32,000 nucleotides of DNA from Candidatus Saccharimonadota bacterium (GTDB lineage Bacteria > Patescibacteriota > Saccharimonadia > Saccharimonadales > Saccharimonadaceae). The notes below the pieces were generated by a model. The model was given only the letters and a program-made list of their open reading frames with translations, did not search any database and was not told the DNA's origin. This document shows, in pieces, positions 2,496 through 31,835 of this stretch (within the stretch, counting starts at the first letter, position 1; every line of letters starts with the position of its first letter). The stretch lies in the NCBI GenBank assembly GCA_001897305.1, contig MKSO01000001.1, forward strand, positions 330,001 through 362,000, written 5' to 3'. A program made the position numbers and the translations under genes.

Positions 2496-2504
2496 ATTAT
2501 AGCA
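2496..2504 (-). promoter_or_regulatory. extended -10 promoter (TGcTATAAT) for gltX; ATG follows 11 nt later with no SD
   Basis: The minus strand reads ...gaaaaataTGcTATAATaagaagcacttATG. Confidence 0.55.
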
Positions 2505-2521
2505 TATTTTTCAGGGGTAGG

Positions 2522-2646
2522 GAGCAAACCACCTCATAGCGTTTCAACGGAACTTGCTTCACGCCACGACCTTTAAGGGTCTCTACGCCTTAAAGGCCTT
2601 GGGTTACGCGAAAGTGTCCTTTTGAAAGCTATGAGGTGGTTTGCTC
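2522..2646 (-). repeat. copy A of a conserved ~105-nt core enclosed in a perfect 19-bp outer stem
   Basis: 2522-2540 (gagcaaaccacctcatagc) is the exact reverse complement of 2628-2646. The interior, reverse-complemented, equals the interior of 11643-11788 except for one 1-nt indel (catagcttt vs cataagcttt). Confidence 0.85.
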
Positions 2647-2665
2647 GCGACCCGCGAAGATGTGC

Positions 2666-3751
2666 TTATAAACTTGTAGCAATATGACGAATCTGGTCGC
2701 CAGAAAGTGGCGCCTTACTATCGATTCGATACAGAATACCGCCGCTCACCCATACTGCCGTAGAATCGTAGGTGTAAATAGTCAGTCCGCGTTCTTTGGT
2801 GGTGACATAATTTGCGCCGGCTTCACGTGTCACGATATTGTCGAGAACGGCTGAAGAATCCCATGAGTTTCGTGACTGTGAGACGGTGTAATAGTTGTCG
2901 TTGCTATTAGAAGTGAACTTGAGATTTACTTGGCCGGTACTGAAGGTAACGGGCTGACTTAGTGAATAGCCATCGGGCGTGTATTCAGGGTACGATGCTT
3001 CGATTCCTGCTTGAGCCGAAGCGATGCCGACGGATACGGCAGGTACAAATTTAAACGTTGCATATGATGCAAGGGCCAATACGACTACTACAAGACAAAT
3101 AATAATGTAACGCTTTTTAATTTTGAGTCGTGGACCAGCAATCTTCTTAACCGCGTTAGTCTTTGGTTGTGCAAGTGCCTTCTCGATGGCCGCATTTTTT
3201 ACCTGCTTAGCCGATACGGGCTGGACGGGTTTGGCTTTTTTCTGACTCACCTTTTGCAGAGCGCGCTGAGCCGTAGGATGAACTTGTGCCGGGGTATCTG
3301 GCTTTACTGAGGCTTTCGACGCCGGTGACGGTGTCTTTAATGTAGCTGGCTGAGCTGCGTCAATAACTGCGGGGTGTGAAGCGAAGCGGCTTACTGCCGT
3401 GCTGCGTGCGATATCCATATGACGACCCGGCGCCGCTCGGCGGAGTACTGGTTTGACGGGTGCTTCGGGCTTTTTAGTAATACGGCGTTGAAGTGTTTTA
3501 GAACGTTGCAGCGTAGTGTGAATGGCATCGGCGCCGGTTTTAGTAATTGAAGGCGAGACTTTCTTAACCTGTTTTGCGCCATCGGGTGACTTTTTAGTAG
3601 CAGCCGGTGTTTTTTGTGCCAAAGGCATACCGGTCACGGCATCATATTCGCGACCATTAATAAGGACTGTTTTGTGTGGTGACATGGGTTGTATGTTCCT
3701 CGCAGGTTTTCTCGCAATTACTACAGCAATGAACACTGCTACTGTGCCCAC
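2666..3751 (-). CDS. hypothetical single-pass membrane protein with a Lys/Ala/Pro-rich N-terminal region and a ~130-aa extracytoplasmic C-terminal domain
   Basis: 361-aa ORF with a GTG start at 3751. An alternative ATG at 3685 (MSPHKTVLINGREYD) has GAGGA upstream. There is a central TM segment YIIICLVVVVLALASYATFKF. I cannot securely name the C-terminal domain. Confidence 0.6.
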   Translation of the reverse strand: MGTVAVFIAVVIARKPARNIQPMSPHKTVLINGREYDAVTGMPLAQKTPAATKKSPDGAKQVKKVSPSITKTGADAIHTTLQRSKTLQRRITKKPEAPVKPVLRRAAPGRHMDIARSTAVSRFASHPAVIDAAQPATLKTPSPASKASVKPDTPAQVHPTAQRALQKVSQKKAKPVQPVSAKQVKNAAIEKALAQPKTNAVKKIAGPRLKIKKRYIIICLVVVVLALASYATFKFVPAVSVGIASAQAGIEASYPEYTPDGYSLSQPVTFSTGQVNLKFTSNSNDNYYTVSQSRNSWDSSAVLDNIVTREAGANYVTTKERGLTIYTYDSTAVWVSGGILYRIDSKAPLSGDQIRHIATSL

Positions 3752-5362: not shown

Positions 5363-6577
5363 TTATTGGCCGCCAAAGAGTCGTTCAAACAAGGTAGGGC
5401 TACTGGCGCCCGGAATGCTCGGCTCATCGCTTGATGCTTCGCCACTATCGGCGGGTGCCGCTGCGGCGGCGGCTGGGTCAGGGCTGACTTGTTCGGCGGT
5501 AACAAGCAGACGATTTGTTGAAGTGCCAAGTGGCGTACAGGTAATGAGTGTGAGTACGGGTTTGCTGGTTGGGTAGACTAACTTATTTACTTCGGTTGGT
5601 TTCACTACTTCTTTCATAGTGACAACATAGGTGTACCGCTTACCGTTGTAATTGGCATAGATCGTATCCCCTTCTACGAGTTTGTCGAGCTGGGCAAAAA
5701 TAAATTTGTATTCGCCTGGGTCGAATAGGTCGTTGCTACTGTGGCCGGATAATACGGTGTTACCTATTTCACCCGGATGACTGCTTGCGCCGGGGATAGA
5801 AAAATGCGCTACACCTTTTTGCATGGCATCCATTTGAGAATTGTAATCGGAGCCAACATCATAGATTGCGGGAACGTCGACATTGATTTTAGGAATTACC
5901 AACCGGGGGTCCGGACCGACAGTAGTATCTTTTGTGGGGTCGATAACTATATTTTGCGGGTCGATTGCACCAGGAGAAACGTAGGCGTTAACAGTTGCAA
6001 AGAGTACTTGGTTGTACTGAATGAATCCGAAAATAAGCACCACCACAAGAGCGGCTGCGACAGGTACAAAATGACGACTGCGGCGGATTTTAATAGCCCT
6101 AGTGCGTACCTTATCAAGTAGTTTTTGGCGCAATTCAAACAATGCCTGGTCTTTGGATAACTCTTCATTGGTATGCTCGAGGTCGGTTTGGGTGTTGAAG
6201 TACCCATCTTGGCTACTACTGGATTGGCTGGTTTGTGTCGGCGTAACGGTTGCTTGTTGAGTGGCTTGTAGCTGGGCTTTCTGGGCTGCCTGGTGTGTGT
6301 AGTAGGCTTCGTAGTACTGTTGGTAGTAGTTCTGCCAAGCAGTGTGGTAGGCCTTCCACTGTTCGGCCTGGGGTTGCGGATGTGATGTATGTGTCCGCTG
6401 ATAGGCGTTAGGTGTTTCTTGTTGCGTAGACGCCTGCTGATTAGAGGTGTCTGCTACAGGATTATTGCCATATAATGCACTAATCTGCGAACGGATAACA
6501 TTCGCAGCTGCCGACTGGTCTTGTGAGGCTGGAGCGTTCGGCTCGTCTCCACCCTGACTAGCATTATTAGGATTCAT
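5363..6577 (-). CDS. sortase-family transpeptidase with a Gln/Tyr-rich N-terminal region and an Ala-rich C-terminal tail
   Basis: It has the TLITC active-site Cys motif (VLTLITCTP), a catalytic His context (VLSGHSS) and a TM anchor (VPVAAALVVVLIFGFIQY). I trimmed the start to ATG 6577 (MNPNNASQ) because the track ORF extension to 6790 reads through the antisense of tRNA-Leu. Confidence 0.85.
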   Translation of the reverse strand: MNPNNASQGGDEPNAPASQDQSAAANVIRSQISALYGNNPVADTSNQQASTQQETPNAYQRTHTSHPQPQAEQWKAYHTAWQNYYQQYYEAYYTHQAAQKAQLQATQQATVTPTQTSQSSSSQDGYFNTQTDLEHTNEELSKDQALFELRQKLLDKVRTRAIKIRRSRHFVPVAAALVVVLIFGFIQYNQVLFATVNAYVSPGAIDPQNIVIDPTKDTTVGPDPRLVIPKINVDVPAIYDVGSDYNSQMDAMQKGVAHFSIPGASSHPGEIGNTVLSGHSSNDLFDPGEYKFIFAQLDKLVEGDTIYANYNGKRYTYVVTMKEVVKPTEVNKLVYPTSKPVLTLITCTPLGTSTNRLLVTAEQVSPDPAAAAAAPADSGEASSDEPSIPGASSPTLFERLFGGQ

Positions 6578-6648
6578 AAATTGATCTGTATTCTTACTAT
6601 GTTTTATTGTACAATACTTGAGATGTAAGGGCGATAGCTCTTCAGTTC

Positions 6649-6686
6649 GGGCGAGTGGCGGATTACGTACCATGCGTAGACGCGCT
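6649..6686 (+). pseudogene. interrupted 5' fragment of tRNA-Leu
   Basis: 6648-6662 (cgggcgagtggcgga) is identical to 6702-6716. 6676-6686 (gtagacgcgct) is identical to 6721-6731. They are separated by 13 nt (ttacgtaccatgc), where the real tRNA has atcg. There is no anticodon or T arm. Confidence 0.5.
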
Positions 6687-6702
6687 GGCGCATTAGCAAT
6701 AC

Positions 6703-6789
6703 GGGCGAGTGGCGGAATCGGTAGACGCGCTAGACTCAAAATCTGGTTCTCGCAAGGGAGTGAGGGTTCAAGTCCCTCCTCGCCCACCA
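6703..6789 (+). tRNA. tRNA-Leu (anticodon CAA)
   Basis: Hand fold: acceptor GGGCGAG/CTCGCCC, D arm GCGG..CGC, anticodon stem CTAGA/TCTGG with loop CTCAAAA, a long variable arm, T arm AGGGT-TCAAGTC-CCCTC, discriminator A and an encoded CCA. Total length is 87 nt. Confidence 0.95.
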
Positions 6790-6796
6790 TATAAAG

Positions 6797-8893: not shown

Positions 8894-9694
8894 CTAGGCT
8901 TCAACCTCGATACTAACCGGGCAGTGGTCGGAGCCCAGTACATTCGGGTGGATTTGCGGGTTCTTTACTTTGTCGGCAATGCCCTTACTAGCAAGCCAGT
9001 AGTCGATCCGCCAGCCAACGTTTCGAGCGCGGGCATTGGCCCAGTGAGTCCACCAAGTATATAGTTCGGCTTTGTCTGGAAAGGCAGCGCGTAGAGTATC
9101 GACATACCCGGCTTTTTCAAAGGCATCAAAGCCTGCGCGCTCCTCATTCGTAAAGCCGTGCTTGCCGATATTCGCCTTGGGGTTAGCAAGATCGATTTCG
9201 CTATGCGCGACGTTAAGGTCGCCGCAAAAAAGGACTGGTTTGGTTTTTTCCAGTTCCTGAATGTGCTCGAGGAACGCTGGGTCCCATTGCTTATGGCGTA
9301 GTTCGAGGCGGCTGAGATCGCCTTTTGAGTTAGGCGTATATACTGTTACAACCCAAAATTTCTCAAACTCAGCTGAAATGACGCGACCTTCTTTTGACGG
9401 GTCGCCGTAGCTATCCCCTGCTAGGCCATACTTTTCAGCGATAGCATCGGTAAAACCATTAATAACCTGCAATGGTTCGGTTTTGCTAAAAATAGCCGTG
9501 CCGCTGTAGCCGGCTTTTTCGGCGCTATTCCAATATTCTTTGTATTGAGGTAGGTCAATCTCGGCCTGGCCTTGCTTGGCTTTTGTTTCTTGCAAGCAGA
9601 AAATATCGGGGTCGTGTTCGGCAACAAAGCTTTGAAAAGCGCCCTTGTTAATAACCGCCCGGATTCCGTTGACATTCCATGAGTAAAGTTTCAT
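8894..9694 (-). CDS. xth: exodeoxyribonuclease III (AP endonuclease)
   Basis: MKLYSWNVNGIRA, CLQETK, GDLNVAH and the C-terminal GSDHCPV are canonical ExoIII/APE1 family motifs. Confidence 0.93.
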   Translation of the reverse strand: MKLYSWNVNGIRAVINKGAFQSFVAEHDPDIFCLQETKAKQGQAEIDLPQYKEYWNSAEKAGYSGTAIFSKTEPLQVINGFTDAIAEKYGLAGDSYGDPSKEGRVISAEFEKFWVVTVYTPNSKGDLSRLELRHKQWDPAFLEHIQELEKTKPVLFCGDLNVAHSEIDLANPKANIGKHGFTNEERAGFDAFEKAGYVDTLRAAFPDKAELYTWWTHWANARARNVGWRIDYWLASKGIADKVKNPQIHPNVLGSDHCPVSIEVEA

Positions 9695-9700
9695 ATAACT

Positions 9701-9706
9701 AGTATA
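9701..9706 (-). promoter_or_regulatory. -10 box TATACT 6 nt upstream of the xth ATG
   Basis: The minus strand reads agcgTATACTagttatATG. There is no SD. Confidence 0.45.
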
Positions 9707-9726
9707 CGCTATTACCTCAACGAGTA

Positions 9727-9972
9727 TTAATCGGTTACGTCACGACGCCATTCTTTGCGTGTTGTATACAGATAACGACGCAACGAATTGTGCTGGACGT
9801 GCCTATCTTGTTTTGGGTGATCTGGATGAGTAGCTATGTTGGTTGTATCGAGGCGCATAACGAGCGCTCGCTTAATGTATTCGCTTCGTGATTCATAGCG
9901 CAATGCTGCTTCGGCGTCGACAATTTGGACGAGCTCTTTCGGCAGTGATATATTGACGATTTTCGTATTCAT
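9727..9972 (-). CDS. ribbon-helix-helix (CopG/Arc/MetJ-type) DNA-binding protein
   Basis: MNTKIVNISLPKELVQIVDAEAALRYESRSEYIKRALV fits the beta-strand/helix/helix RHH pattern. I prefer ATG 9972 to the TTG at 9987. Confidence 0.7.
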   Translation of the reverse strand: MNTKIVNISLPKELVQIVDAEAALRYESRSEYIKRALVMRLDTTNIATHPDHPKQDRHVQHNSLRRYLYTTRKEWRRDVTD

Positions 9973-10563: not shown

Positions 10564-11628
10564 TTAGAGCGCGTCTTTGATCGCCTTGAGTAGTGCTCTA
10601 GCTGAAGCATTCCAACTAAACTGTTTCATGTGTTTTAAGCCGTGGTCTATCTGCTGCTTTCTAAATTTCGGGTTATCGAGCTGGCAAACTTTCTGGGCAA
10701 AATCTTCGGGCTTAGCAGGATCAAAATACAAAGCCCCACTCGCCCCTACTTCATGGAACACGGGTATGTCACTTACAACCACCGGCACGCCCATGGCCAT
10801 TGCTTCGGCGACAGGAATGCCATAGCCTTCATCTAGGCTAGCCGTGGCAAGGATGGCATCATCTGCAAGCAGGCGTTCGTATTCGTCATCACTGACGCCA
10901 TTATGAAAAACAACCTGAGCACCTTCCGGCACCAGGGTTTGCAATTCGGTTTTTCGCTCAGGACTAATGCGGCTTAATAGATGAAGCGTACGTCCAGGCA
11001 GCCACTGCATGCCACGAATAAGCGTTTCGGCGTTTTTGTATGGCATAAACGAACCCATATACACAATGTTTTTAATTGTCTTTTCGTGTTTCACTGGGTA
11101 CTTGGTAAATTTTTGCGGCGCGTTGTATATAACGTGGATTGGCTTGTTGGTCATGCGCGCTTTTTTTAGGTCGTCGGCAGAGGTATGGCTGACGGTGGTA
11201 ATAATATCCCCGCCCTTCAAAAGCATGCGCTGTGGCCAGTAGACCTGGTGGTATAGCCACCATCCTGCGCGTACAAAAAAAGGTAAAAACCCTGGTGCCT
11301 TAGGATGACGATAGTAAATCATATCCTGGGGTGTTAACACCGAAGTATACTTGCGGCCAAAGGTTCCAATGGTTTGCATTGGGCTATAGACAACATCTGG
11401 TTTGTACTTATTTAAGATGAGCGCAGTAAACGGCTCTTTTACAGACGTGCCCGGGTGAACTTTTAAAAACGACGCATCTTTAGGAAACCATTTTTTCTGT
11501 TTTTCATCAGAAATCAAAAAAGTCACTGGTGTTAGCTTGTTGAGTGCATTGCCAAGTTCGGCTGAATACCGACTAATACCATCGTGGTAGTCGGTTCGGG
11601 TATACCGTGCATCAAAAAAGATTTTCAT
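10564..11628 (-). CDS. glycosyltransferase, family 4 (GT-B fold)
   Basis: MKIFFDARY...DGISRY at the N-terminus and the C-terminal ASLDEGYGIPVAEAMAMGVPVVVSDI (EX7E-type GT4 motif). Confidence 0.85.
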   Translation of the reverse strand: MKIFFDARYTRTDYHDGISRYSAELGNALNKLTPVTFLISDEKQKKWFPKDASFLKVHPGTSVKEPFTALILNKYKPDVVYSPMQTIGTFGRKYTSVLTPQDMIYYRHPKAPGFLPFFVRAGWWLYHQVYWPQRMLLKGGDIITTVSHTSADDLKKARMTNKPIHVIYNAPQKFTKYPVKHEKTIKNIVYMGSFMPYKNAETLIRGMQWLPGRTLHLLSRISPERKTELQTLVPEGAQVVFHNGVSDDEYERLLADDAILATASLDEGYGIPVAEAMAMGVPVVVSDIPVFHEVGASGALYFDPAKPEDFAQKVCQLDNPKFRKQQIDHGLKHMKQFSWNASARALLKAIKDAL

Positions 11629-11638
11629 ACTCTTTAAA

Positions 11639-11647
11639 ATTGTATCA
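11639..11647 (-). promoter_or_regulatory. extended -10 (TGaTACAAT) for the 10564-11628 glycosyltransferase, partly built from the left arm of repeat copy B
   Basis: The minus strand reads ctcgTGaTACAATtttaaagagtATG, with 10 nt between the hexamer and the ATG. Confidence 0.5.
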
Positions 11648-11788
11648 CGAGCGCCAGCGACCCCTCATAAGCTTTCAAAAGGACACTTTCGCGTAACCCA
11701 AGGCCTTTAAGGCGTAGAGACCCTTAAAGGTCGTGGCGTGAAGCAAGTTCCGTTGAAACGCTATGAGGGGTCGCTGGCGCTCGTGATA
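11643..11788 (+). repeat. copy B of the conserved ~105-nt core enclosed in a perfect 27-bp outer stem
   Basis: 11643-11669 (tatcacgagcgccagcgacccctcata) is the exact reverse complement of 11762-11788. The interior matches the reverse complement of copy A. Confidence 0.85.
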
Positions 11789-11792
11789 TAAT
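11784..11792 (+). promoter_or_regulatory. extended -10 (TGaTATAAT) for the 11805 glycosyltransferase, partly built from the right arm of repeat copy B
   Basis: The sequence reads ctcgTGaTATAATcaaacgaagcgtATG, with 12 nt to the ATG and no SD. Confidence 0.5.
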
Positions 11793-11804: not shown

Positions 11805-12971
11805 ATGAAAATACTTATTGCATCGGATCTTCACTACCCGACCATTAACGGCGTTGCCACGTTTAGCCGTAATTTAGCCCGTGGTCTTGCGGCTCGTGGC
11901 CATGAAGTGCTGGTGATTGCTCCTAGTCAAACGGGCAAAAAGTGCAAAGAAGTTGATGGCAACCACGTTATTGTACGCACCGCTTCGGTGCCGTTTCCTT
12001 TTTATCAGAACTTTAGAATCTCGCTTAACCCGGCCCGTGAAGTAAAAAAGATTATTGATGATTTCGACCCAGATGTCATTCATATCCAAATGCTGATGTG
12101 GATTGGCCAGGCGGCTATGCGCTATGGCAACAAGTATGGCATTCCTATTGTCAGTACCAACCATGCTATGCCAGAGAACTTAATGGATAACCTTCGTATG
12201 TTGGCGCCGGTATCACGGCCGATCAATTACATTCTGAAAGCATACGGCGCTCGCTTCCACTCTAAGGCTGATGTTATTACTATGCCAACCCAATCAGCGA
12301 TTGATATGTTCGATGTTGCGAAGCTTGGTATGAAAATTGAAGCGGTGTCTAATGGTATCGACCTGGCCCGGTTTAGCCCTGGCTCAGTTGCAGATGATGT
12401 CTATGATCGTTTTAACTTACCAAAGGATAAGCCAATTGTTAGTTATGTGGGTCGTCTCGATGCCGAAAAGCACCTGCCAGTCTTGCTTCGAGCTTTTGTG
12501 CGCGTACAGTCGGTGCTCCCTAATACCCATTTACTTATTGTTGGTGACGGCACCGAGCGACCATTACTGCAAACCATGGCGCACGAATTAGGCATTAGCC
12601 ACGACGTGACCTTGACTGGGCGTGTAAGTGACGAAGACCTTGAGGCATTGCATAGAGTGGGCACGGTGTTTTGTATGCCGTCACCTGCTGAGTTACAAAG
12701 TATTGCAACGCTCGAAGCCATGGCGAGTGGCCAGCCAGTTGTAGCAGTTGATGCGGGGGCTTTGCGCGAATTGTGTCAAAACGAACGCAACGGCTACCTT
12801 ACCGAGCAAGATGATGATGAGGCTATTGCCCGTGGTCTTATTGCTATTATTGAAGACCCTGCCTTGCGTGAAGAAATGAGCAAGGAAAGTCTGGCTATTG
12901 CTAATACGCACGACCTACAAACTACCCTGTCTCGTTTTGAAGAAATTTATAGCGGATTAGTAAAAGCCTGA
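11805..12971 (+). CDS. glycosyltransferase, family 4 (GT-B fold)
   Basis: MKILIASDLHYPTINGVATFSRNLARGLAARGHEVLVIAP (N-terminal GT4 domain), YVGRLDAEK and PSPAELQSIATLEAMASGQPVVAVDAG (EX7E). Confidence 0.9.
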   Translation: MKILIASDLHYPTINGVATFSRNLARGLAARGHEVLVIAPSQTGKKCKEVDGNHVIVRTASVPFPFYQNFRISLNPAREVKKIIDDFDPDVIHIQMLMWIGQAAMRYGNKYGIPIVSTNHAMPENLMDNLRMLAPVSRPINYILKAYGARFHSKADVITMPTQSAIDMFDVAKLGMKIEAVSNGIDLARFSPGSVADDVYDRFNLPKDKPIVSYVGRLDAEKHLPVLLRAFVRVQSVLPNTHLLIVGDGTERPLLQTMAHELGISHDVTLTGRVSDEDLEALHRVGTVFCMPSPAELQSIATLEAMASGQPVVAVDAGALRELCQNERNGYLTEQDDDEAIARGLIAIIEDPALREEMSKESLAIANTHDLQTTLSRFEEIYSGLVKA

Positions 12972-24496: not shown

Positions 24497-24535
24497 CTCA
24501 CTCTATATATAATAGCTTATATACACAGGGAGATG

Positions 24536-25121
24536 GACAGAGATAGTGCACGTCCAATACCGCTCGGGGTGAACCGAGTGGCTCCCGCATCCGAGGATGC
24601 TCAGTAGAAGACCTTCTTGTCGCACGTTCCCGAGTCGACCTTCTTGCCGCACTTGTAGTCGTCCTTGCCGAAGGTCGAGAACTGGTTGACGTAGGTCGTG
24701 TGACCGCTCGAGCACTCACCGCTCTTGTTCCAGTTGCCGCTGAGCACCTGGACTGACAGCGTCGCTGCCATGATTCCTCCAAGGGATCGTAGGGATGGAT
24801 TTGAGGGGGACCCTCTCACTTTTAACACAAGACGCAATTGTCTCGTTGGCGATTCTTAATGGGGGGAAGAATCGACAACCAAGGTGTTGGTGAGTGAGGG
24901 GGTCCCCGGGTATACCCGTGTGTGGGGCCGAACGTCATTGCTCGAACACGGGTAGCTTGGGAAAGCTGGAAGGCGGGCTGACCTGACGGCGTCTGGGGGA
25001 TGCACGTCGGGCCAGCCCTTGTACATGGAGATGATGGGCTCGTCGATGACAAGCCAGAACCATCTGCAAAGCCTTGGGGCGCTCTGCATTCTCCACGTAC
25101 CTCTGTTGCACTATCTCTGTC
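24536..25121. mobile_element. inverted-repeat-bounded high-GC cassette with no transposase (MITE / mobile-insertion-cassette-like), compositionally foreign
   Basis: 24536-24550 gacagagatagtgca is the exact reverse complement of 25107-25121 tgcactatctctgtc. Hand GC counts give 104/180 (58%) for 24601-24780 and 79/120 (66%) for 24901-25020. One 60-nt line of the adjacent dus gene gives 27/60 (45%), and 25201-25260 gives 16/60 (27%). Confidence 0.55.
24601..24771 (-). CDS. small (56 aa) Lys/Gly/Ser-rich protein with 3 Cys and 1 His, high-GC codon usage, unknown function
   Basis: ATG 24771 is preceded by GGAGGaatc. The product is MAATLSVQVLSGNWNKSGECSSGHTTYVNQFSTFGKDDYKCGKKVDSGTCDKKVFY. 51 of 56 codons end in G or C. 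A GCATCC-tc-GGATGC hairpin directly follows the TGA stop. Confidence 0.6.
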   Translation of the reverse strand: MAATLSVQVLSGNWNKSGECSSGHTTYVNQFSTFGKDDYKCGKKVDSGTCDKKVFY

Positions 25122-25227
25122 TGTAAATGTACAGATAGAGAGCTGCAGCAAGTGGCTACCTTTTCTCGTAAGAAAAGCTGCTCACGTGTCGCAGCTCAAT
25201 CTATCTATATTTATATTATAGCATGTT

Positions 25228-28200
25228 TTATACTATTCCGTCAATAAGATCTTGCTCGAAAGCTAATACTCCCTTAAGGTCCTGTGTATAATGGCTGGTA
25301 TCTGGTAGATCGAGAGTAATAATATGGCGCCAAACCGCCTCTATTAAGCGGCGCGTGCGCTCGAGCTCTTCACTAAGGTTTGAAAACTCAAGTTCAAGGA
25401 CGCTTGTCTCACCTGCTTTGGTCGGTTCGATAAACGCCAAGCAGCCTTTTGTAACGGTAAAATTATGGTATTCTGATGAATTTTCAGCCAATATTTTATA
25501 AAAAAGAAGCTGTTGTCGGTAAGTATGGAGCTTCATTTTTGTATGTTCGTCTCCCTTATCCCAGGCGGTTGCAGGGCGACCGGTTTTGTAATCAGTGACG
25601 ATAATCGTTTTCTCCTTCTTGTCGATGTCGATCATATCAAGCGAACCTGTTAAGCGTGCCTCTTCTACACGTACATCCTGGTAATTAAAGCCAACTTCGG
25701 CCTTTTGAGTGGGGGTCATTGGCAAGGCATTCGAACTCAAAAAGACTGGTAGATGTTCACTTCCCTGCTGTAAATAGCGCTGTAGATCTTGTGGTGCCAA
25801 TCGCTCCCGGCCCATGGCAACTTCAAAATCGTAAAGTGTATCCTCGAGCGGTTTTTGCTGGCCGGTGGAAGCAACGTGCAAATGAGCTTGTTGGAGTGTC
25901 CAGTGGATAGCTGTGCCATACGCTGCAGCCGCTGGCTTGCTTTTAGGAAAATGCAGAATATTGTTGAGCAAGAAATGCTGTGGGCCGCCACGGGTAACAT
26001 CTAAAAAGCTGTTTAACGATGTTGCGCTCAATTTAAACTTTTCAAGTTGAGGCGCTAGCAATGTTTTAAGATCTTGAGTAGGCTCAACAAATGGCTGATA
26101 CCAAGCAAGTTCGGCGATCGCTATTTCATCGACTTTTTCAGGTTCGGGAGCGGTGGTTGTTGTCAGGTTGGTTGCCAGTAAGAAATCGGCCGGTAGGGTT
26201 ACTTTGTTGGCGTCGCTACGTTCGCTGTAACTTATAATAAGCTGCCGTTTGGCACGCGTCATGGCGACGTAAAAAAGGCGCAACCGTTCGTCGGCAGTAT
26301 TACCGGCTGGCGCGAGCGGCAAGTTTGCCGGGTAGCTAATCGAACGGCTAAAGCTGCGGGCGCTGTGTCCCCATACGCTATCGACGGAATTATACACATA
26401 CACCGTCTCGAACTCGAGCCCTTTTGACTTGTGGGCGGTTAATAATTGCACAGCCGCAACATCACTAGCCAGTGAATAGTGGCTGGCGGTAATACCAACA
26501 CCAAGGCGCTCATGAAGATCGACGAATTCAACGAAGGCCGGTAATGTGAGCGAAGCACCGGGTCGGTACTCGCGCAGGCGGGCGCGAATAGCCCTAAGGG
26601 CATTAAGGCAGTCCAAGTAGGCATCTGGTTGCTCGGCAAGCTTGTCGGGTGCAAAATAATACTCAAACAGTGGGCTGACTTCGCTTTCATCTTGTGAGCG
26701 GCCAATGAGCGAGTCGATCATCGGCTCGAGTGCTGTAGTGCTGACTTCTTGGGCGCGTTCAATAAGCCAATTGTGAATAGCGGTGAACTCGGGCGTGGTG
26801 GCCATAACTTCCATCCAGGTTTGGCGGTTAGTGTAGGCATCGAGGCTAAGGCGCCAAATTGCCTTGGCGGAAAGTTGCCAAGCGGGGTGCGCGAGCATTT
26901 CGGGTAGCAGTTGTTCGACCTCATCATGATTGCCCTGTGATAAGTGCGTGACGACACGCGCAACCTGAATAAGTGCCTTAATAGGCGCCGCATCAAGAAC
27001 GCTTTCTTCCCGTTCATAGCGAATTGGCACACCGGCTTGGCGGAAGAATGGCAATAGCGATTGTATATCGCTGTGGCGTCGAGCCAATACAGCGATCGAT
27101 GAGGGGTCCGCGCCTTGTTGTATGTCTGTGGCAATACGCTGGGCGATTTCGTGGCGCTCCGCATCCCCTGACGGTGCATTCCAAAGGATGGCGCTGGCGG
27201 GTTCTGCTGTTTGAGCGGTTAGTTGCTTATCAATTTCGGGCAGGCGGGTTTCGAGCCGGTCGGTACCCTGGGTAATAACTGTTCGGGCAGCTTGCAAAAT
27301 GGCGGCCCCTGAACGGTAGTTCTCGGTTAACACGATCAGTTGTCGACTGGGGTACATGTCGGAAAAATTAAGAATATTACTAACGTCAGCACCTTGGAAA
27401 CCATACACCGCCTGGTCGTCATCCCCTACTACTAGAATGTTAGGGTTACCTTCGTTAACAGGATTATCCGTGAGGTTGTGAAGAATACGCAGTTGGGCCA
27501 AGTTGGTGTCTTGGAACTCGTCCACCATAATGTAGAGGTATTTTTCCTGCAGGTTTAGCTTAAGATCGATTTGGGTTTCAACAGCATGGACTACTTGCAT
27601 AATCATATCGTCATAGTCGAACAAACCTTCTTTTTCCATGCGGTTTAAGTATTCGTAGTAGACAAATGCCAAGGCCTTTAGCTTGGTGAGTCGTTTACGG
27701 TCTTTAAACACCAGTTCTTTGGTGCTGTCGCGTTCAAACCAGGTGCTTTTCCAGGCGGATAAAGGTTTTGTAGGATGGATAGCAATTGTATCTTCTAGGG
27801 CTGCTTCTAGTGACTCAACAATAATAGTAGCCAATGGGACCACTTGATGAAGATGTTCTAAAGCTTGGCTATGTTCTCGCATGGCAATAAGGGCATCGCG
27901 TAGTTTATCCCCAGTGGTTTTGCCGATCCGTTCGCTAAGAATAGGGCGAAGAATACGTTCGAAGCTATCAAGTGACGCCTCGCTTTGCTCAATGACCGCT
28001 AATAATTCATCGCTGGTAAGGGCACTACCCCGTTTTAGCTCGGAGATACTTTTTTGGGCATCGGCGATGTGGGTATATTCGCCGTTCATCATTGACGATA
28101 ACGGGTTTGAATACGGCAGCTCTTCAAAAATACTCCGTAAAATTTCGTATTGTTTTAAATCGTCGGCTGGCTGAAATAGGGCGTTACGGTAAAAATATTC

Positions 28201-28506
28201 GCGATTTTGGTTAATAATTTCGCTGCCGAAACTGTGAAAAGTGTGAATGGCTACTTTGTAAGCATCTTTGCCGATAATACTGACCAAGCGTTCACGCATG
28301 GCTGCCTGGCCACTTTCGGTAAAGGTTAGGCAGAGGATGTTTTCGGGTAAGGTATCGGTTTTTTGTAGAATATTGGCGGCGCGCACGCTGAGGAGTTCGG
28401 TTTTACCCGTACCTGGTCCGGCGATAACCATGACCGGCCCATCAATAGTATCGACAGCCTTCTTTTGGGCGTGGTTAAGGTTGGCGTAGCGCGATTGAAA
28501 ACTCAT
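25228..28506 (-). CDS. UvrD/PcrA-family superfamily-1 DNA helicase fused to a C-terminal RecB/AddB-type PD-(D/E)XK nuclease domain
   Basis: The Walker A motif is AGPGTGKT. Motif II is VDEFQDTN. Other helicase motifs are TENYRSG, TAHKSKGLEFETVYV and LFYVAMTRAKRQL. The C-terminal nuclease motifs are GSLDMIDID...IIVTDYKTG and QLLFYKIL (QxxxY). Confidence 0.9.
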   Translation of the reverse strand: MSFQSRYANLNHAQKKAVDTIDGPVMVIAGPGTGKTELLSVRAANILQKTDTLPENILCLTFTESGQAAMRERLVSIIGKDAYKVAIHTFHSFGSEIINQNREYFYRNALFQPADDLKQYEILRSIFEELPYSNPLSSMMNGEYTHIADAQKSISELKRGSALTSDELLAVIEQSEASLDSFERILRPILSERIGKTTGDKLRDALIAMREHSQALEHLHQVVPLATIIVESLEAALEDTIAIHPTKPLSAWKSTWFERDSTKELVFKDRKRLTKLKALAFVYYEYLNRMEKEGLFDYDDMIMQVVHAVETQIDLKLNLQEKYLYIMVDEFQDTNLAQLRILHNLTDNPVNEGNPNILVVGDDDQAVYGFQGADVSNILNFSDMYPSRQLIVLTENYRSGAAILQAARTVITQGTDRLETRLPEIDKQLTAQTAEPASAILWNAPSGDAERHEIAQRIATDIQQGADPSSIAVLARRHSDIQSLLPFFRQAGVPIRYEREESVLDAAPIKALIQVARVVTHLSQGNHDEVEQLLPEMLAHPAWQLSAKAIWRLSLDAYTNRQTWMEVMATTPEFTAIHNWLIERAQEVSTTALEPMIDSLIGRSQDESEVSPLFEYYFAPDKLAEQPDAYLDCLNALRAIRARLREYRPGASLTLPAFVEFVDLHERLGVGITASHYSLASDVAAVQLLTAHKSKGLEFETVYVYNSVDSVWGHSARSFSRSISYPANLPLAPAGNTADERLRLFYVAMTRAKRQLIISYSERSDANKVTLPADFLLATNLTTTTAPEPEKVDEIAIAELAWYQPFVEPTQDLKTLLAPQLEKFKLSATSLNSFLDVTRGGPQHFLLNNILHFPKSKPAAAAYGTAIHWTLQQAHLHVASTGQQKPLEDTLYDFEVAMGRERLAPQDLQRYLQQGSEHLPVFLSSNALPMTPTQKAEVGFNYQDVRVEEARLTGSLDMIDIDKKEKTIIVTDYKTGRPATAWDKGDEHTKMKLHTYRQQLLFYKILAENSSEYHNFTVTKGCLAFIEPTKAGETSVLELEFSNLSEELERTRRLIEAVWRHIITLDLPDTSHYTQDLKGVLAFEQDLIDGIV

Positions 28507-28563: not shown

Positions 28564-29058
28564 ATGGACATGAACGAACAGCTATATGACGATGTGTCAA
28601 TTGAGCGCCTGGTAAAGGCCCAGTTTGGTGTTTCGTTAGAGATAGACTCGGTTATTGCGCGACGCATTCCTGTAGGGCGGAGTGTTGAGGGGACGTTATT
28701 TCTGACGAGTAAAAAGCAGCTTATGTTGTACGTTGACGGTGAGTCTAAGTTGTATCTGTCGGATATTCGTAAGATTGTTTCTCGGGTTGGACTGGTGGCT
28801 GAAGCGTATCTTCCGCCTAAAAATCAGCCTCATTATTTTGAAGACATCGGACGACGCAAGTTTCAGGAAGTATTTCCTGGCCGCAAAGTTGTCAACGAGC
28901 AGGACATTGCTTTCTATACCACCTTGGCGCCTTACTCACCTGCCCTGATCCATATTCGCGAAGTAAAAAACGGGGTTATTTATCAATACGACAGCGATGC
29001 GACGGGCGGATGGCGCCCGCACTCGAAATTTAGTTACCGTCGGATCCTGACGAGCTAA
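28564..29058 (+). CDS. hypothetical soluble protein
   Basis: 164-aa ORF with no recognised motif. The real start is possibly ATG 28570 (MNEQLYDD) as a leaderless mRNA. Confidence 0.55.
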   Translation: MDMNEQLYDDVSIERLVKAQFGVSLEIDSVIARRIPVGRSVEGTLFLTSKKQLMLYVDGESKLYLSDIRKIVSRVGLVAEAYLPPKNQPHYFEDIGRRKFQEVFPGRKVVNEQDIAFYTTLAPYSPALIHIREVKNGVIYQYDSDATGGWRPHSKFSYRRILTS

Positions 29059-31765: not shown

Positions 31766-31767
31766 CG

Positions 31768-31797
31768 AAAAAAGCAGGATTTTATTCCTGCTTTTTT
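31768..31797 (+). terminator. intrinsic terminator after tRNA-Gln
   Basis: AAAAAAGCAGGA-ttttat-TCCTGCTTTTTT is a 12-bp stem including A/T runs, so it is potentially bidirectional. Confidence 0.7.
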
Positions 31798-31835
31798 CGT
31801 GGCTAAGCGTGCTGGGTTTGCACATACCGTCACGG

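What the first reader, a model, noticed from the sequence alone, without database searches (positions are those of the whole stretch)
2522..2646. Nearly identical ~105-nt core present twice in inverted orientation, each inside a different perfect long stem
Reverse-complemented, the interior of 2522-2646 equals the interior of 11643-11788 apart from one 1-nt indel. The shared part starts and ends with its own 9-nt inverted termini, CCTCATA(A)GC...GCTATGAGG.

- **Structure:** the core folds into an extended rod. An 11-bp apical stem GGCCTTTAAGG/CCTTAAAGGTC closes a 9-nt loop, flanked by TTTCAA/TTGAAA and CTT..CGCG/CGTGAAG pairings.
- **Outer helix:** it continues perfectly in both copies but with different sequence, 10 extra bp in copy A (GAGCAAACCA) and 20 extra bp in copy B (TATCACGAGCGCCAGCGACC).
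- **Why this is odd:** the outer helix is conserved as a structure but not as sequence. Ordinary transposon target duplications are direct repeats, so they would not produce this.
- **Possible explanations:** a small element that inserts into the centre of pre-existing palindromes, or a structured RNA or DNA hairpin under selection for a long closing helix.
- **Orientation:** relative to the gene immediately downstream (gltX for A, the 11805 glycosyltransferase for B), both copies face the same way.
Basis: seen in the sequence. Interest (0 to 1): 0.72.

Follow-up and report, generated by a model that had tools for sequence, protein, structure and literature searches.

The report
Flip-flopping conserved hairpin element in Saccharibacteria
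The two copies belong to an undescribed family of intergenic hairpin elements in Saccharibacteria (TM7): an ~87-nt core that is conserved more strongly than a neighbouring gene, closed by a long, perfectly paired stem whose sequence differs at every site and lineage, with a core that flips orientation between lineages.

Summary
2522-2646 and 11643-11788 share a 99-nt identical inverted segment, and each lies inside a perfect long helix.

**Host and family**
- The host is a ~0.9-Mb Saccharibacteria genome.
- Related assemblies show the conserved unit is an ~87-nt imperfect hairpin, TTTCAAAAGG...GTTGAAAC.
- Every complete copy has its own closing arms. Six of seven in the window clade are perfect or near-perfect over 19-30 bp.

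**Arms are part of the element**
- Genomes with empty orthologous sites lack the arms as well, so the arms were not target palindromes.
- The element occupies at least five intergenic sites.
- At site B it lies exactly between two back-to-back -10 promoter boxes.

**Evolution**
- Cores are 78-92% identical across lineages whose neighbouring gene is 73-81% identical at nucleotide level.
- 18 of 35 predicted pairs show changes on both sides.
- Arms are unalignable between lineages.
- The core is flipped between lineages at three sites.
- Cores A and B are identical in this genome but only 80% alike in another.

**Interpretation**
No match in Rfam, phage or plasmid collections. My best reading is a REP/ERIC-like palindromic element or functional hairpin. 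Template switching and gene conversion between inverted repeats would explain the perfect arms and the flips. Its function is unknown.

The parts
2522..2646 (-). Copy A (site A), whole perfect hairpin. It lies between the stop codon of ORF 2666-3751(-) and the gltX promoter.
   Evidence: fold -82.8 kcal/mol, z = -10.8. An imperfect extension of the palindrome runs to 2510-2658 (pair I4).
2541..2627 (-). Copy A conserved core, 87 nt. It reads TTTCAAAAGG...CCGTTGAAAC on the minus strand, which is sense to gltX.
   Evidence: Covariance-model hit of 113 bits. 100% identical to the copy B core.
2522..2540 (.). Copy A left arm: GAGCAAACCA (site-specific) plus CCTCATAGC (shared with copy B).
   Evidence: The related lineage L085 has GAGCAAACAA+CCTCATAGC here. 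L095 has a different 21-bp arm.
2628..2646 (.). Copy A right arm: GCTATGAGG plus TGGTTTGCTC.
   Evidence: perfectly complementary to 2522-2540.
2647..2665 (.). 19 nt between copy A and the stop codon of the upstream gene. This stretch is absent from the empty site in L093. It partly mirrors 2510-2521 (8 of 12 complementary).
2496..2504 (-). Extended -10 box of gltX (TGCTATAAT on the minus strand), 17 nt from the foot of hairpin A.
   Evidence: The same box is present at the empty site of L093.
11643..11788 (+). It lies between the divergent glycosyltransferase genes 10564-11628(-) and 11805-12971(+).
   Evidence: fold -100.6 kcal/mol, z = -15.0.
11648..11783 (+). The segment present at site B relative to the empty site: arms CGAGCGCCAGCGACC+CCTCATAAGC, the core, then GCTATGAGG+GGTCGCTGGCGCTCG.
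   Evidence: Comparison with the empty site at L093:9961-10000.
11673..11759 (+). Copy B conserved core, 87 nt, on the plus strand.
11639..11647 (-). Extended -10 box of the 354-aa glycosyltransferase gene (TGATACAAT on the minus strand). It abuts the hairpin and forms its outermost pairs.
11784..11792 (+). Extended -10 box of the 388-aa glycosyltransferase gene (TGATATAAT). It abuts the hairpin.

Best explanation
Copies A and B belong to a lineage-restricted, low-copy family of intergenic palindromic hairpin elements in Candidatus Saccharibacteria.

**Anatomy.** Each copy has two parts:
- an ~87-nt imperfect-hairpin core with conserved sequence: an apical 11-bp stem with a 9-nt loop, an invariant internal-loop region (..CUUUCGCGUAACC.. 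/ ..GGCGUGAAGCAAG..), and a basal stem TTTCAA/TTGAAA;
- closing arms of arbitrary, copy-specific sequence, perfect or near-perfect over 19-30 bp in six of the seven complete window-clade copies.

**Shown**
- The whole hairpin, arms included, is the unit that is present or absent at orthologous sites.
- The family sits at a few fixed intergenic positions that predate species-level splits.
- The core is more conserved than a neighbouring conserved protein gene at the nucleotide level, and its stems covary.
- The arms drift until they cannot be aligned, yet usually stay perfectly paired.
- The core is inverted between lineages at three sites.
- Copies within one genome can become identical.

**Inferred**
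- The perfect arms, the flip-flop and the partial mirroring of adjacent flank are by-products of DNA-level processes at inverted repeats. These are intra-strand template switching or hairpin-templated repair, which homogenises arms and inverts spacers, plus recombination between the arms.
- The identity of A and B in this genome comes from gene conversion of the A-site copy by the B-type copy. The converted tract covered the core plus about 9 bp of arm (CCTCATAGC).
- The core persists either because the element does something as a nucleic-acid hairpin or because it is a selfish REP/ERIC-like element.
- Orientation is not conserved, and site B lies between two promoters that fire outward. I therefore favour an orientation-independent role. 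That could be a DNA hairpin or cruciform just upstream of promoters, or a purely structural RNA stem when it is co-transcribed (insulation, termination or 3'-end protection).
- I consider a strand-specific RNA with a defined sequence function less likely.
For: **Family and host**
- The host is Saccharibacteria. The nearest species representatives have at most 79% GltX identity.
- Copies found: window A and B; L004/L111 (site E); L088 (B); L085 (A and B, both cut by contig ends); L095 (A); L102-L106 (A and B); L110 (E).
- Distant members, from the covariance-model search: two in L019 and one in L008.

**Arms differ at the same site and are usually perfect (site B)**
- Window: CGAGCGCCAGCGACCCCTCATAAGC.
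- L088: TGGTTGGCAGCGAGGGATGGCGATACC.
- L102: TGGCTCGCGCAGGCCAGGTCTGGCTGCC.
- Sources.

**Empty sites lack the arms**
- L093 site B is ATTGTAGCA|TGGTATACT, and L093 site A is a 38-nt spacer.
- L107 site E is a 17-nt spacer.

**Constraint on the core**
- The window core and the L102 site-B core are 89% identical, while the adjacent glycosyltransferase gene is 74% identical at nucleotide level.
- 18 of 35 pairs show changes on both sides. 94% of cells are paired, against 36-47% when partners are slid. No shuffle out of 500 reaches the observed values.

**Flips**
- Site A: sense to gltX in the window and L095, antisense in L085 and L102.
- Site B: one orientation in the window and L085, the other in L088 and L102.
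- Site E: L004 differs from L110.
- Sources.

**Old paralogues and conversion**
- Cores cluster partly by site: L095 A and L102 A are 91% alike.
- Within L102, the A and B cores are only 80% alike. In the window they are 100% alike.

**Palindrome extends past the arms**
- Symmetry continues in degraded form beyond the perfect arms. 44 of 84 positions are complementary, against about 27% expected.

**Literature**
- Template switching between inverted repeats homogenises the arms, inverts the spacer, and can create and maintain perfect hairpins (abstracts of PMC8604942 and PMC8794818).
Against: - No direct evidence for template switching here. I have both arms in only one genome per close strain group, so paired changes over short time scales could not be followed.
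- Selection for pairing with ordinary compensatory mutation could also keep the arms perfect.
- The excess complementarity beyond the arms is partly explained by mirrored -10 boxes at site B and by imperfect stem continuations, so it is weak support for flank copying.
- Copy number per genome is unknown. Only about 20-40 kb per genome could be read.
- G-T pairs outnumber A-C mismatches 16 to 5 on the TTTCAAAAGG strand. In tandem-gene contexts that strand is sense in 6 of 8 cases. Both fit an RNA read from one strand. The first figure is biased because the structure was derived on that strand, and the second is not significant.
- No expression data are available.
- The empty lineage L093 is nested among filled lineages in the glycosyltransferase comparison. 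Gain and loss therefore cannot be told apart.
Confidence: 0.5

Rival explanations
1. The element is a strand-specific structured non-coding or cis-regulatory RNA, a new RNA family. The conserved internal loop and apical loop would be functional. The long closing helix would be selected as a P1-like helix or an RNase III substrate, and it varies by covariation.
For: - Strong covariation in two helices, with an invariant internal-loop region (alignment).
- The core is more conserved than the neighbouring gene's nucleotides.
- More G-T pairs than A-C mismatches on one strand, 16 to 5.
- That strand folds better in 5 of 6 copies.
- It is sense in 6 of 8 tandem-gene contexts.
- L004 is followed by a T-run.
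Against: - The core is inverted relative to the flanking genes in L085 and L102 at site A and in L110 at site E, yet its sequence remains conserved.
- Site B lies between two promoters that fire outward, so no obvious transcript crosses it.
- No promoter consensus was found in or around the element.
- No Rfam family matches.
- Template switching can mimic covariation without selection on RNA (PMC8794818).
Confidence: 0.2
2. A small mobile element (MITE-like) inserts into the centre of pre-existing palindromes such as terminator hairpins, so each copy inherits a copy-specific stem from its target.
For: - Presence or absence at orthologous sites.
- At least five different sites across lineages.
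- Identical copies within one genome.
- Long perfect hairpin terminators do exist in this genome, for example 17 bp after tRNA-Gln.
- Site B is the centre of a pre-existing quasi-palindrome made of two -10 boxes.
Against: - The empty sites contain none of the 15-28-bp arm sequence.
- Arms at the same site differ completely between lineages.
- There are no conserved terminal repeats and no direct target duplication.
- Cores group partly by site, which indicates old orthologous loci rather than repeated fresh insertion.
- No copies were found in phage or plasmid collections.
Confidence: 0.1
3. The element is an invertible switch, similar to an inverton. The perfect arms would be the inverted repeats, and the core would be flipped frequently within populations to change expression of the adjacent gene, for example the two glycosyltransferases at site B.
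For: - The architecture is inverted repeats flanking an ~87-bp segment found in both orientations at three sites.
- At site B the element sits immediately upstream of promoters of cell-envelope genes.
- The window and L085 share an identical visible core but differ in orientation at site A, so the flip is recent relative to core divergence.
Against: - The arms are not conserved, so there is no recombinase recognition sequence.
- No recombinase gene is called in the neighbourhoods.
- No promoter-like site was found inside the core.
- All assemblies of the same species show one orientation (L001, L002 and the window; L102-L106).
Confidence: 0.08
4. The elements are ordinary intrinsic terminators or chance palindromes with no family identity.
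For: The L004 copy starts right after a stop codon and is followed by TTTTT.
Against: - An ~87-nt core sequence is shared across sites and lineages.
- The scan found no terminator-like site at A or B.
- Site B lies between divergent promoters.
Confidence: 0.02

Closest known systems
ERIC / IRU elements of Enterobacteria, and similar 100-150-bp palindromic intergenic repeats such as Neisseria Correia elements and Stenotrophomonas SMAG. This comparison rests on my own knowledge; none of these families was aligned here.
   Same: - About 100-150 bp, imperfect palindromes confined to intergenic regions.
- Found in either orientation and present or absent at orthologous sites.
- Sequence conserved across species.
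- No coding capacity.
- Able to fold as RNA hairpins when co-transcribed.
   Different: - No conserved terminal inverted repeats and no TA or other direct target duplication.
- Each copy has its own 19-30-bp closing helix, usually perfect.
- Apparently very low copy number.
- No sequence similarity to those families was tested or found.
REP/BIME elements mobilised by RAYT (TnpA-REP) transposases. This comparison rests on my own knowledge.
   Same: - Intergenic imperfect palindromes.
- Copies occur in alternating orientation.
- Proposed hairpin-level (single-strand) biology.
   Different: - REPs are 20-40 nt, present in hundreds of copies, and have a conserved GTAG-type head.
- Here the core is 87 nt, there are few copies, and no RAYT gene was seen in about 40 kb around the copies.
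Hairpins maintained by template switching, and spacer inversion between inverted repeats (PMC8794818, PMC8604942). This is a process rather than a family.
   Same: - Perfectly paired stems of non-conserved sequence.
- Apparent compensatory change.
- Inversion of the segment between the arms.
- Partial mirroring of the flank.
   Different: Those studies concern short stems in rRNA and coding genes. Here the process would act around a long core that is itself conserved. This has not been demonstrated directly.
Invertons (phase-variable invertible promoters).
   Same: A segment flanked by inverted repeats, seen in both orientations and located next to envelope genes.
   Different: - The arm sequences are not conserved.
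- No recombinase gene is nearby.
- No promoter was detected inside the segment.
- No mixed orientation within a population has been shown.

Membership tests
MITE (for example ERIC or Correia-like) | Conserved terminal inverted repeats shared by all copies | tested here: not met
   CCTCATAGC/GCTATGAGG is shared only by window-type copies. L004, L088, L095 and L102 have unrelated arm sequences right up to the core.
MITE (for example ERIC or Correia-like) | Direct target-site duplication flanking each copy | tested here: not met
   The flanks are inverted, not direct, and no direct repeat appears at any junction. At site B the junction is ATTGTATCA|...|TGATATAAT.
MITE (for example ERIC or Correia-like) | Presence/absence polymorphism at orthologous sites | tested here: met
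   Sites A and B are empty in L093, L092 and L099. Site E is empty in L107-L109.
MITE (for example ERIC or Correia-like) | Many dispersed copies per genome and a cognate autonomous IS or transposase | not testable with these tools
   Only about 20-40 kb per genome could be fetched: 2 copies in 41 kb of the window genome, and 0-2 per 20 kb elsewhere. No transposase gene was called in these neighbourhoods.
REP/BIME with RAYT | 20-40-nt palindrome with a conserved head, at high copy number | tested here: not met
   The core is 87 nt and the whole hairpin is 125-150 nt. Copy density is low.
Any Rfam 15 RNA family | Covariance-model match at or near the gathering score | tested here: not met
   No match even at E up to 10 on 2400-2800. 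Only tRNAs were found in the window and in L004, L019 and L008.
Integron attC site | R''/R' core sites (RYYYAAC ... GTTRRRY) at the ends, within a cassette array next to intI | tested here: not met
   By inspection, the ends TTTCAAAAGG / CCGTTGAAAC do not fit the consensus. The neighbours are housekeeping genes with no integrase.
Inverton (invertible promoter) | Segment bounded by inverted repeats and found in both orientations | tested here: met
   Both orientations occur at sites A, B and E, but in different lineages.
Inverton (invertible promoter) | Both orientations coexisting in one population, a promoter inside the segment, and a dedicated recombinase | tested here: inconclusive
   No promoter consensus was found and no recombinase gene is nearby.
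Intrinsic (rho-independent) terminator | G+C-rich hairpin followed directly by a U-tract, downstream of a gene | tested here: not met
   The scan found none at A or B. Only the site E copy in L004 has a T-run. Site B lies between divergent promoters.

The most novel reading that the evidence does not exclude
The core is a functional element of a new kind in these reduced genomes. One reading is a cruciform or hairpin-forming DNA signal placed just upstream of leaderless-type promoters, whose long helix is continually rebuilt by template switching. Its flip-flop would then act as a recombinase-independent switch. The other reading is a new structured RNA class whose orientation toggles. In either case selection acts on the core sequence in a 0.9-Mb genome that carries almost no other repeats.
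Probability: 0.15. Interest if true: 0.8.

Novelty: new variant of a known kind. Interest (0 to 1): 0.55.

Why it matters
**For Saccharibacteria biology.** These genomes are streamlined to about 0.9 Mb, and intergenic DNA is scarce. A ~130-150-nt non-coding hairpin kept at the same intergenic sites across species-level splits is therefore unlikely to be neutral filler. Its core is also conserved above the nucleotide level of a neighbouring conserved gene. That makes it a candidate regulatory or structural element in a phylum where almost no non-coding elements are described.

**For how long helices evolve.** Each orthologous locus offers a conserved core, arms that are usually perfect but cannot be aligned between lineages, and spacer flips. 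This makes it a clean natural case for asking whether long perfect helices are kept by selection or by template switching at inverted repeats.

**For annotation and assembly.** The element breaks short-k assemblies (L003, L085, L089, L100, L101, L110). It has also been called as a spurious 79-aa protein in public data (P0124).

Tried and rejected
**Collection scans**
- Exact 31-mer of the apical hairpin in genome contigs: 0 hits. The organism's species is not among the representatives, and the apical stem varies.
- A 27-mer in viral contigs: 0 hits.
- A 25-mer in metagenome contigs: only L004.
- blastn of the core against 80 related Saccharibacteria loci (1.3 Mb): nothing convincing. Covariance models R1 and R2 then recovered three distant members and nothing else.
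- Phage and plasmid collections: no match.

**Comparisons that did not resolve**
- L008 against L006 as a filled/empty pair: too diverged for a clean junction.
- Other arm of L085 site B, to test paired changes: I tried P0033, P0008 and P0009. These turned out to be other strains. Logan contigs stop inside the element, so only one arm is visible there.
- P0126 lookup: it returned the same element as L004 from the same metagenome, so it added nothing.

**Search for more copies through proteins**
- Translating the element and searching 1.84 billion proteins for spurious ORFs gave one true hit, P0124. That hit did lead to L102-L106.

**Ideas considered and dropped**
- attC site, parS half-sites, retron msd, 6S or SRP RNA, single-strand origin, and an inverton with an internal promoter. 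The defining motifs or partner genes were absent, or Rfam gave nothing.
- The GUA/GAA internal loop loosely resembles a sarcin-ricin or loop-E motif. It is GCA/GAA in the distant members, and I did not test it, so I make no claim.
- The 7-nt complementarity between the end of the upstream gene (CGTCATA) and the gltX start (TATGACG). I regard it as probably coincidental, since both are coding.

Full report
**1. The observation**

- 2532-2630 and 11670-11768 are 99 nt and 100% reverse-complementary. With one 1-nt indel the match reaches 106 nt.
- Copy A is a perfect hairpin at 2522-2646. Its arms are GAGCAAACCA+CCTCATAGC.
- Copy B is a hairpin at 11643-11788. Its arms are TATCACGAGCGCCAGCGACC+CCTCATA(A)GC.
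- The folds are far beyond shuffled sequence: copy B z = -15.0, copy A z = -10.8.
- The same sequences occur in independent assemblies of the same organism (L001, L002). One contig (L003) ends inside the element.

**2. Host and context**

- The flanking proteins are GltX, two GT4 glycosyltransferases, SmpB and a sortase-domain protein.
- The scaffolds carrying them are about 0.9 Mb.
- The best matches among GTDB species representatives are Candidatus Saccharibacteria MAGs with at most 79% GltX identity. The species itself is therefore not among the representatives.
- Copy A lies between the stop codon of ORF 2666-3751(-) and the gltX promoter.
- Copy B lies between two divergently transcribed glycosyltransferase genes.
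- First genes of operons in this genome carry an extended -10 box (TGnTAnAnT) only 6-12 nt before the start codon. TGNTATAAT occurs 5 times, against about 1 expected.

**3. What the unit is**

- Its arms are entirely different: AAACACAGCATCCGCGGCATC, 21 bp perfect. The motif CCTCATAGC is absent.
- Its apical stem carries three changes that preserve pairing.

Covariance models built from these copies found three distant members in 1.4 Mb from 80 related species: two in L019 and one in L008. Nothing else was found.

Further copies came from walking orthologous loci through protein look-ups:

| Locus | Site | State |
|---|---|---|
| L085 | A and B | both cut by contig ends |
| L088 | B | complete |
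| L095 | A | complete |
| L102-L106 | A and B | complete |
| L110 | E | cut by contig end |

No match was found in Rfam or in the phage and plasmid collections.

**4. The arms are part of the element, not of the target**

The lineage L093/L092/L099 has empty sites.
- **Site B.** It is 40 nt long and reads aatctataaaaATTGTAGCA|TGGTATACTgtagacagatt. This is the two -10 boxes back to back.
- In the window the same boxes, ATTGTATCA and TGATATAAT, are separated by 136 nt (11648-11783). That segment is arms plus core.
- **Site A.** In L093 it is a 38-nt spacer in which the stop codon is followed directly by the sequence homologous to window 2510-2521.
- **Site E.** This site lies after a PIF1-type helicase gene. 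It is a 17-nt spacer in L107-L109.

None of the arm sequence exists in any empty site. "Insertion into pre-existing palindromes" is therefore not supported, apart from the mirrored -10 boxes at site B.

Direction cannot be settled. In the glycosyltransferase comparison the empty lineage is nested among filled ones. The empty sites may therefore be losses of the whole hairpin rather than the ancestral state.

**5. Evolutionary pattern**

*Arms*
- At one and the same site the arms cannot be aligned between lineages, yet they are usually perfect. Site B has 25 bp (with one bulged A) in the window, 27 bp in L088 and 28 bp in L102.
- Site A has 19 bp in the window and 21 bp in L095. In L102 the site A arms are imperfect.
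- Only the outermost few base pairs are shared at a given site. At site A, AGCAAAC compares with AGCAAGC. At site B, GCGCTCG is shared by the window and L085. This points to orthology of the loci.
- Among close strains the arms differ at 1-3 of 27 positions (L088, L100, L101). That is roughly the divergence of the adjacent gene.

*Core*
- Cores are 78-92% identical across lineages whose glycosyltransferase gene is 73-81% identical at the nucleotide level.
- On seven distinct cores, 18 of 35 predicted pairs show changes on both sides. 94% of cells are paired, against 36-47% when partners are slid.
- All of the pairs that change on both sides lie in the basal and apical helices. The internal-loop region in the middle has none and varies little in sequence.

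*Old paralogues and conversion*
- Cores group partly by site. L095 A and L102 A are 91% alike.
- L102 carries A and B cores that are only 80% alike. A and B are therefore old paralogous loci.
- Their 100% identity in the window is a secondary homogenisation. It covers the core plus CCTCATAGC.
- L085's visible copy ends also match the window type.

*Flips*
- **Site A:** sense to gltX in the window and L095, antisense in L085 and L102.
- **Site B:** one orientation in the window and L085, the opposite in L088 and L102.
- **Site E:** L004 and L110 differ.
- The window and L085 have identical visible core sequence but opposite orientation at site A. The flip is therefore fast relative to core divergence.

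**6. Mechanism**

*Shown:* the facts in sections 3-5.

*Inferred*
- Perfect arms of drifting sequence, inversion of the spacer between them, and degraded mirror symmetry continuing into the flank form one pattern. For the mirror symmetry, 44 of 84 positions are complementary, against about 27% expected.
- That figure is partly confounded by mirrored -10 boxes and by imperfect stem continuations.
- This pattern is what has been described for polymerase template switching between inverted repeats. It homogenises arms, inverts spacers, and can create and maintain hairpins (PMC8604942, PMC8794818).
- Gene conversion between copies accounts for A being identical to B.

*Why the core is conserved remains open*
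- Orientation is free, and site B is not crossed by any obvious transcript.
- I therefore favour an orientation-independent role: a DNA hairpin or cruciform next to promoters, a purely structural RNA stem where co-transcribed, or persistence as a selfish REP/ERIC-like element.
- A strand-specific RNA remains a serious rival. Three observations support it:
  - G-T pairs outnumber A-C mismatches 16 to 5 on one strand (biased by how the model was built).
  - That strand folds better in 5 of 6 copies.
  - It is sense in 6 of 8 tandem-gene contexts.

**7. Comparison with known systems**

- The element works most like ERIC/REP-type intergenic palindromic repeats.
- It fails the defining MITE tests of conserved terminal repeats and direct target duplication.
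- It is too long, and apparently too rare, for REP.
- It has an inverton-like architecture, but no conserved arm sequence, no recombinase gene nearby and no detectable promoter inside the segment.
- I file it as a new variant of the palindromic intergenic element kind, with an unusual evolutionary signature.

**8. Limits**

- Only 20-40 kb per genome could be read, so copy number is unknown.
- Both arms are known in only one genome per close strain group.
- There are no expression data and no read-level data.
- All sequences come from metagenome assemblies. However, several pipelines agree: ENA, JGI, NCBI and Logan give identical L102-L106 copies.

Noticed in passing
window 24782-25228: About 450 nt of G+C-rich sequence that looks non-coding, with nested hairpins (for example 24806-24820 pairs with 24893-24907, and 24845-24857 with 24867-24879). 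It lies between ORFs 24498-24782(-) and 25228-28506(-). Only a weak TTG-start ORF (24822-25151, minus strand) covers it. Rfam gives no match even at E up to 1, and ARAGORN finds no tmRNA. It may be an unrecognised structured RNA, such as a divergent RNase P RNA or tmRNA.
   Followed up: partly
window 31766-31805: Immediately after tRNA-Gln there is a 17-bp perfect hairpin, CCACGAAAAAAGCAGGA / TCCTGCTTTTTTCGTGG, with a 6-nt loop and A/T runs on both sides. It looks like a bidirectional terminator. It shows that long perfect hairpins unrelated to the element exist in this genome.
   Followed up: no
window gene starts, e.g. 2484(-), 7603(-), 9694(-), 10544(-), 11628(-), 11805(+), 13735(-), 28506(-), 28564(+): Extended -10 boxes (TGnTAnAnT) sit only 1-12 nt upstream of the start codon, which implies leaderless or near-leaderless mRNAs. 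At 28564 the box TGGTACAAT is followed by A and then ATG. Divergent gene pairs place their two -10 boxes back to back.
   Followed up: partly
window 5363-6790(-) and tRNA-Leu 6703-6789(+): The 475-aa ORF carrying the sortase domain, also called as a gene in a public assembly, runs across the tRNA-Leu gene on the opposite strand. Orthologues in related strains are 389-420 aa. The annotated start is probably too far upstream.
   Followed up: no
L102:10001-10240 (protein P0124); also L091:1-96: Public gene calls include a spurious 79-aa 'protein' read straight through the hairpin at site B, overlapping the start of the glycosyltransferase gene. There is also a 31-aa fragment at a contig edge. The element therefore contaminates protein databases.
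   Followed up: yes
L085:7186-9194: Relative to the window, the related strain L085 carries three extra genes between the 268-aa ORF and the sortase gene. They are a 195-aa HTH protein with faint transposase-type HTH hits, a 136-aa ORF and a 315-aa SLFN/AlbA_2 protein. This is a small variable island between the two hairpin sites.
   Followed up: no
L095:9410-9470 and 9485-9883: In strain L095, site B has no hairpin. It holds an extra 132-aa ORF and a separate terminator-like hairpin (TGGAACG...CGTTCCA). The divergent promoter region is rearranged in that lineage.
   Followed up: no
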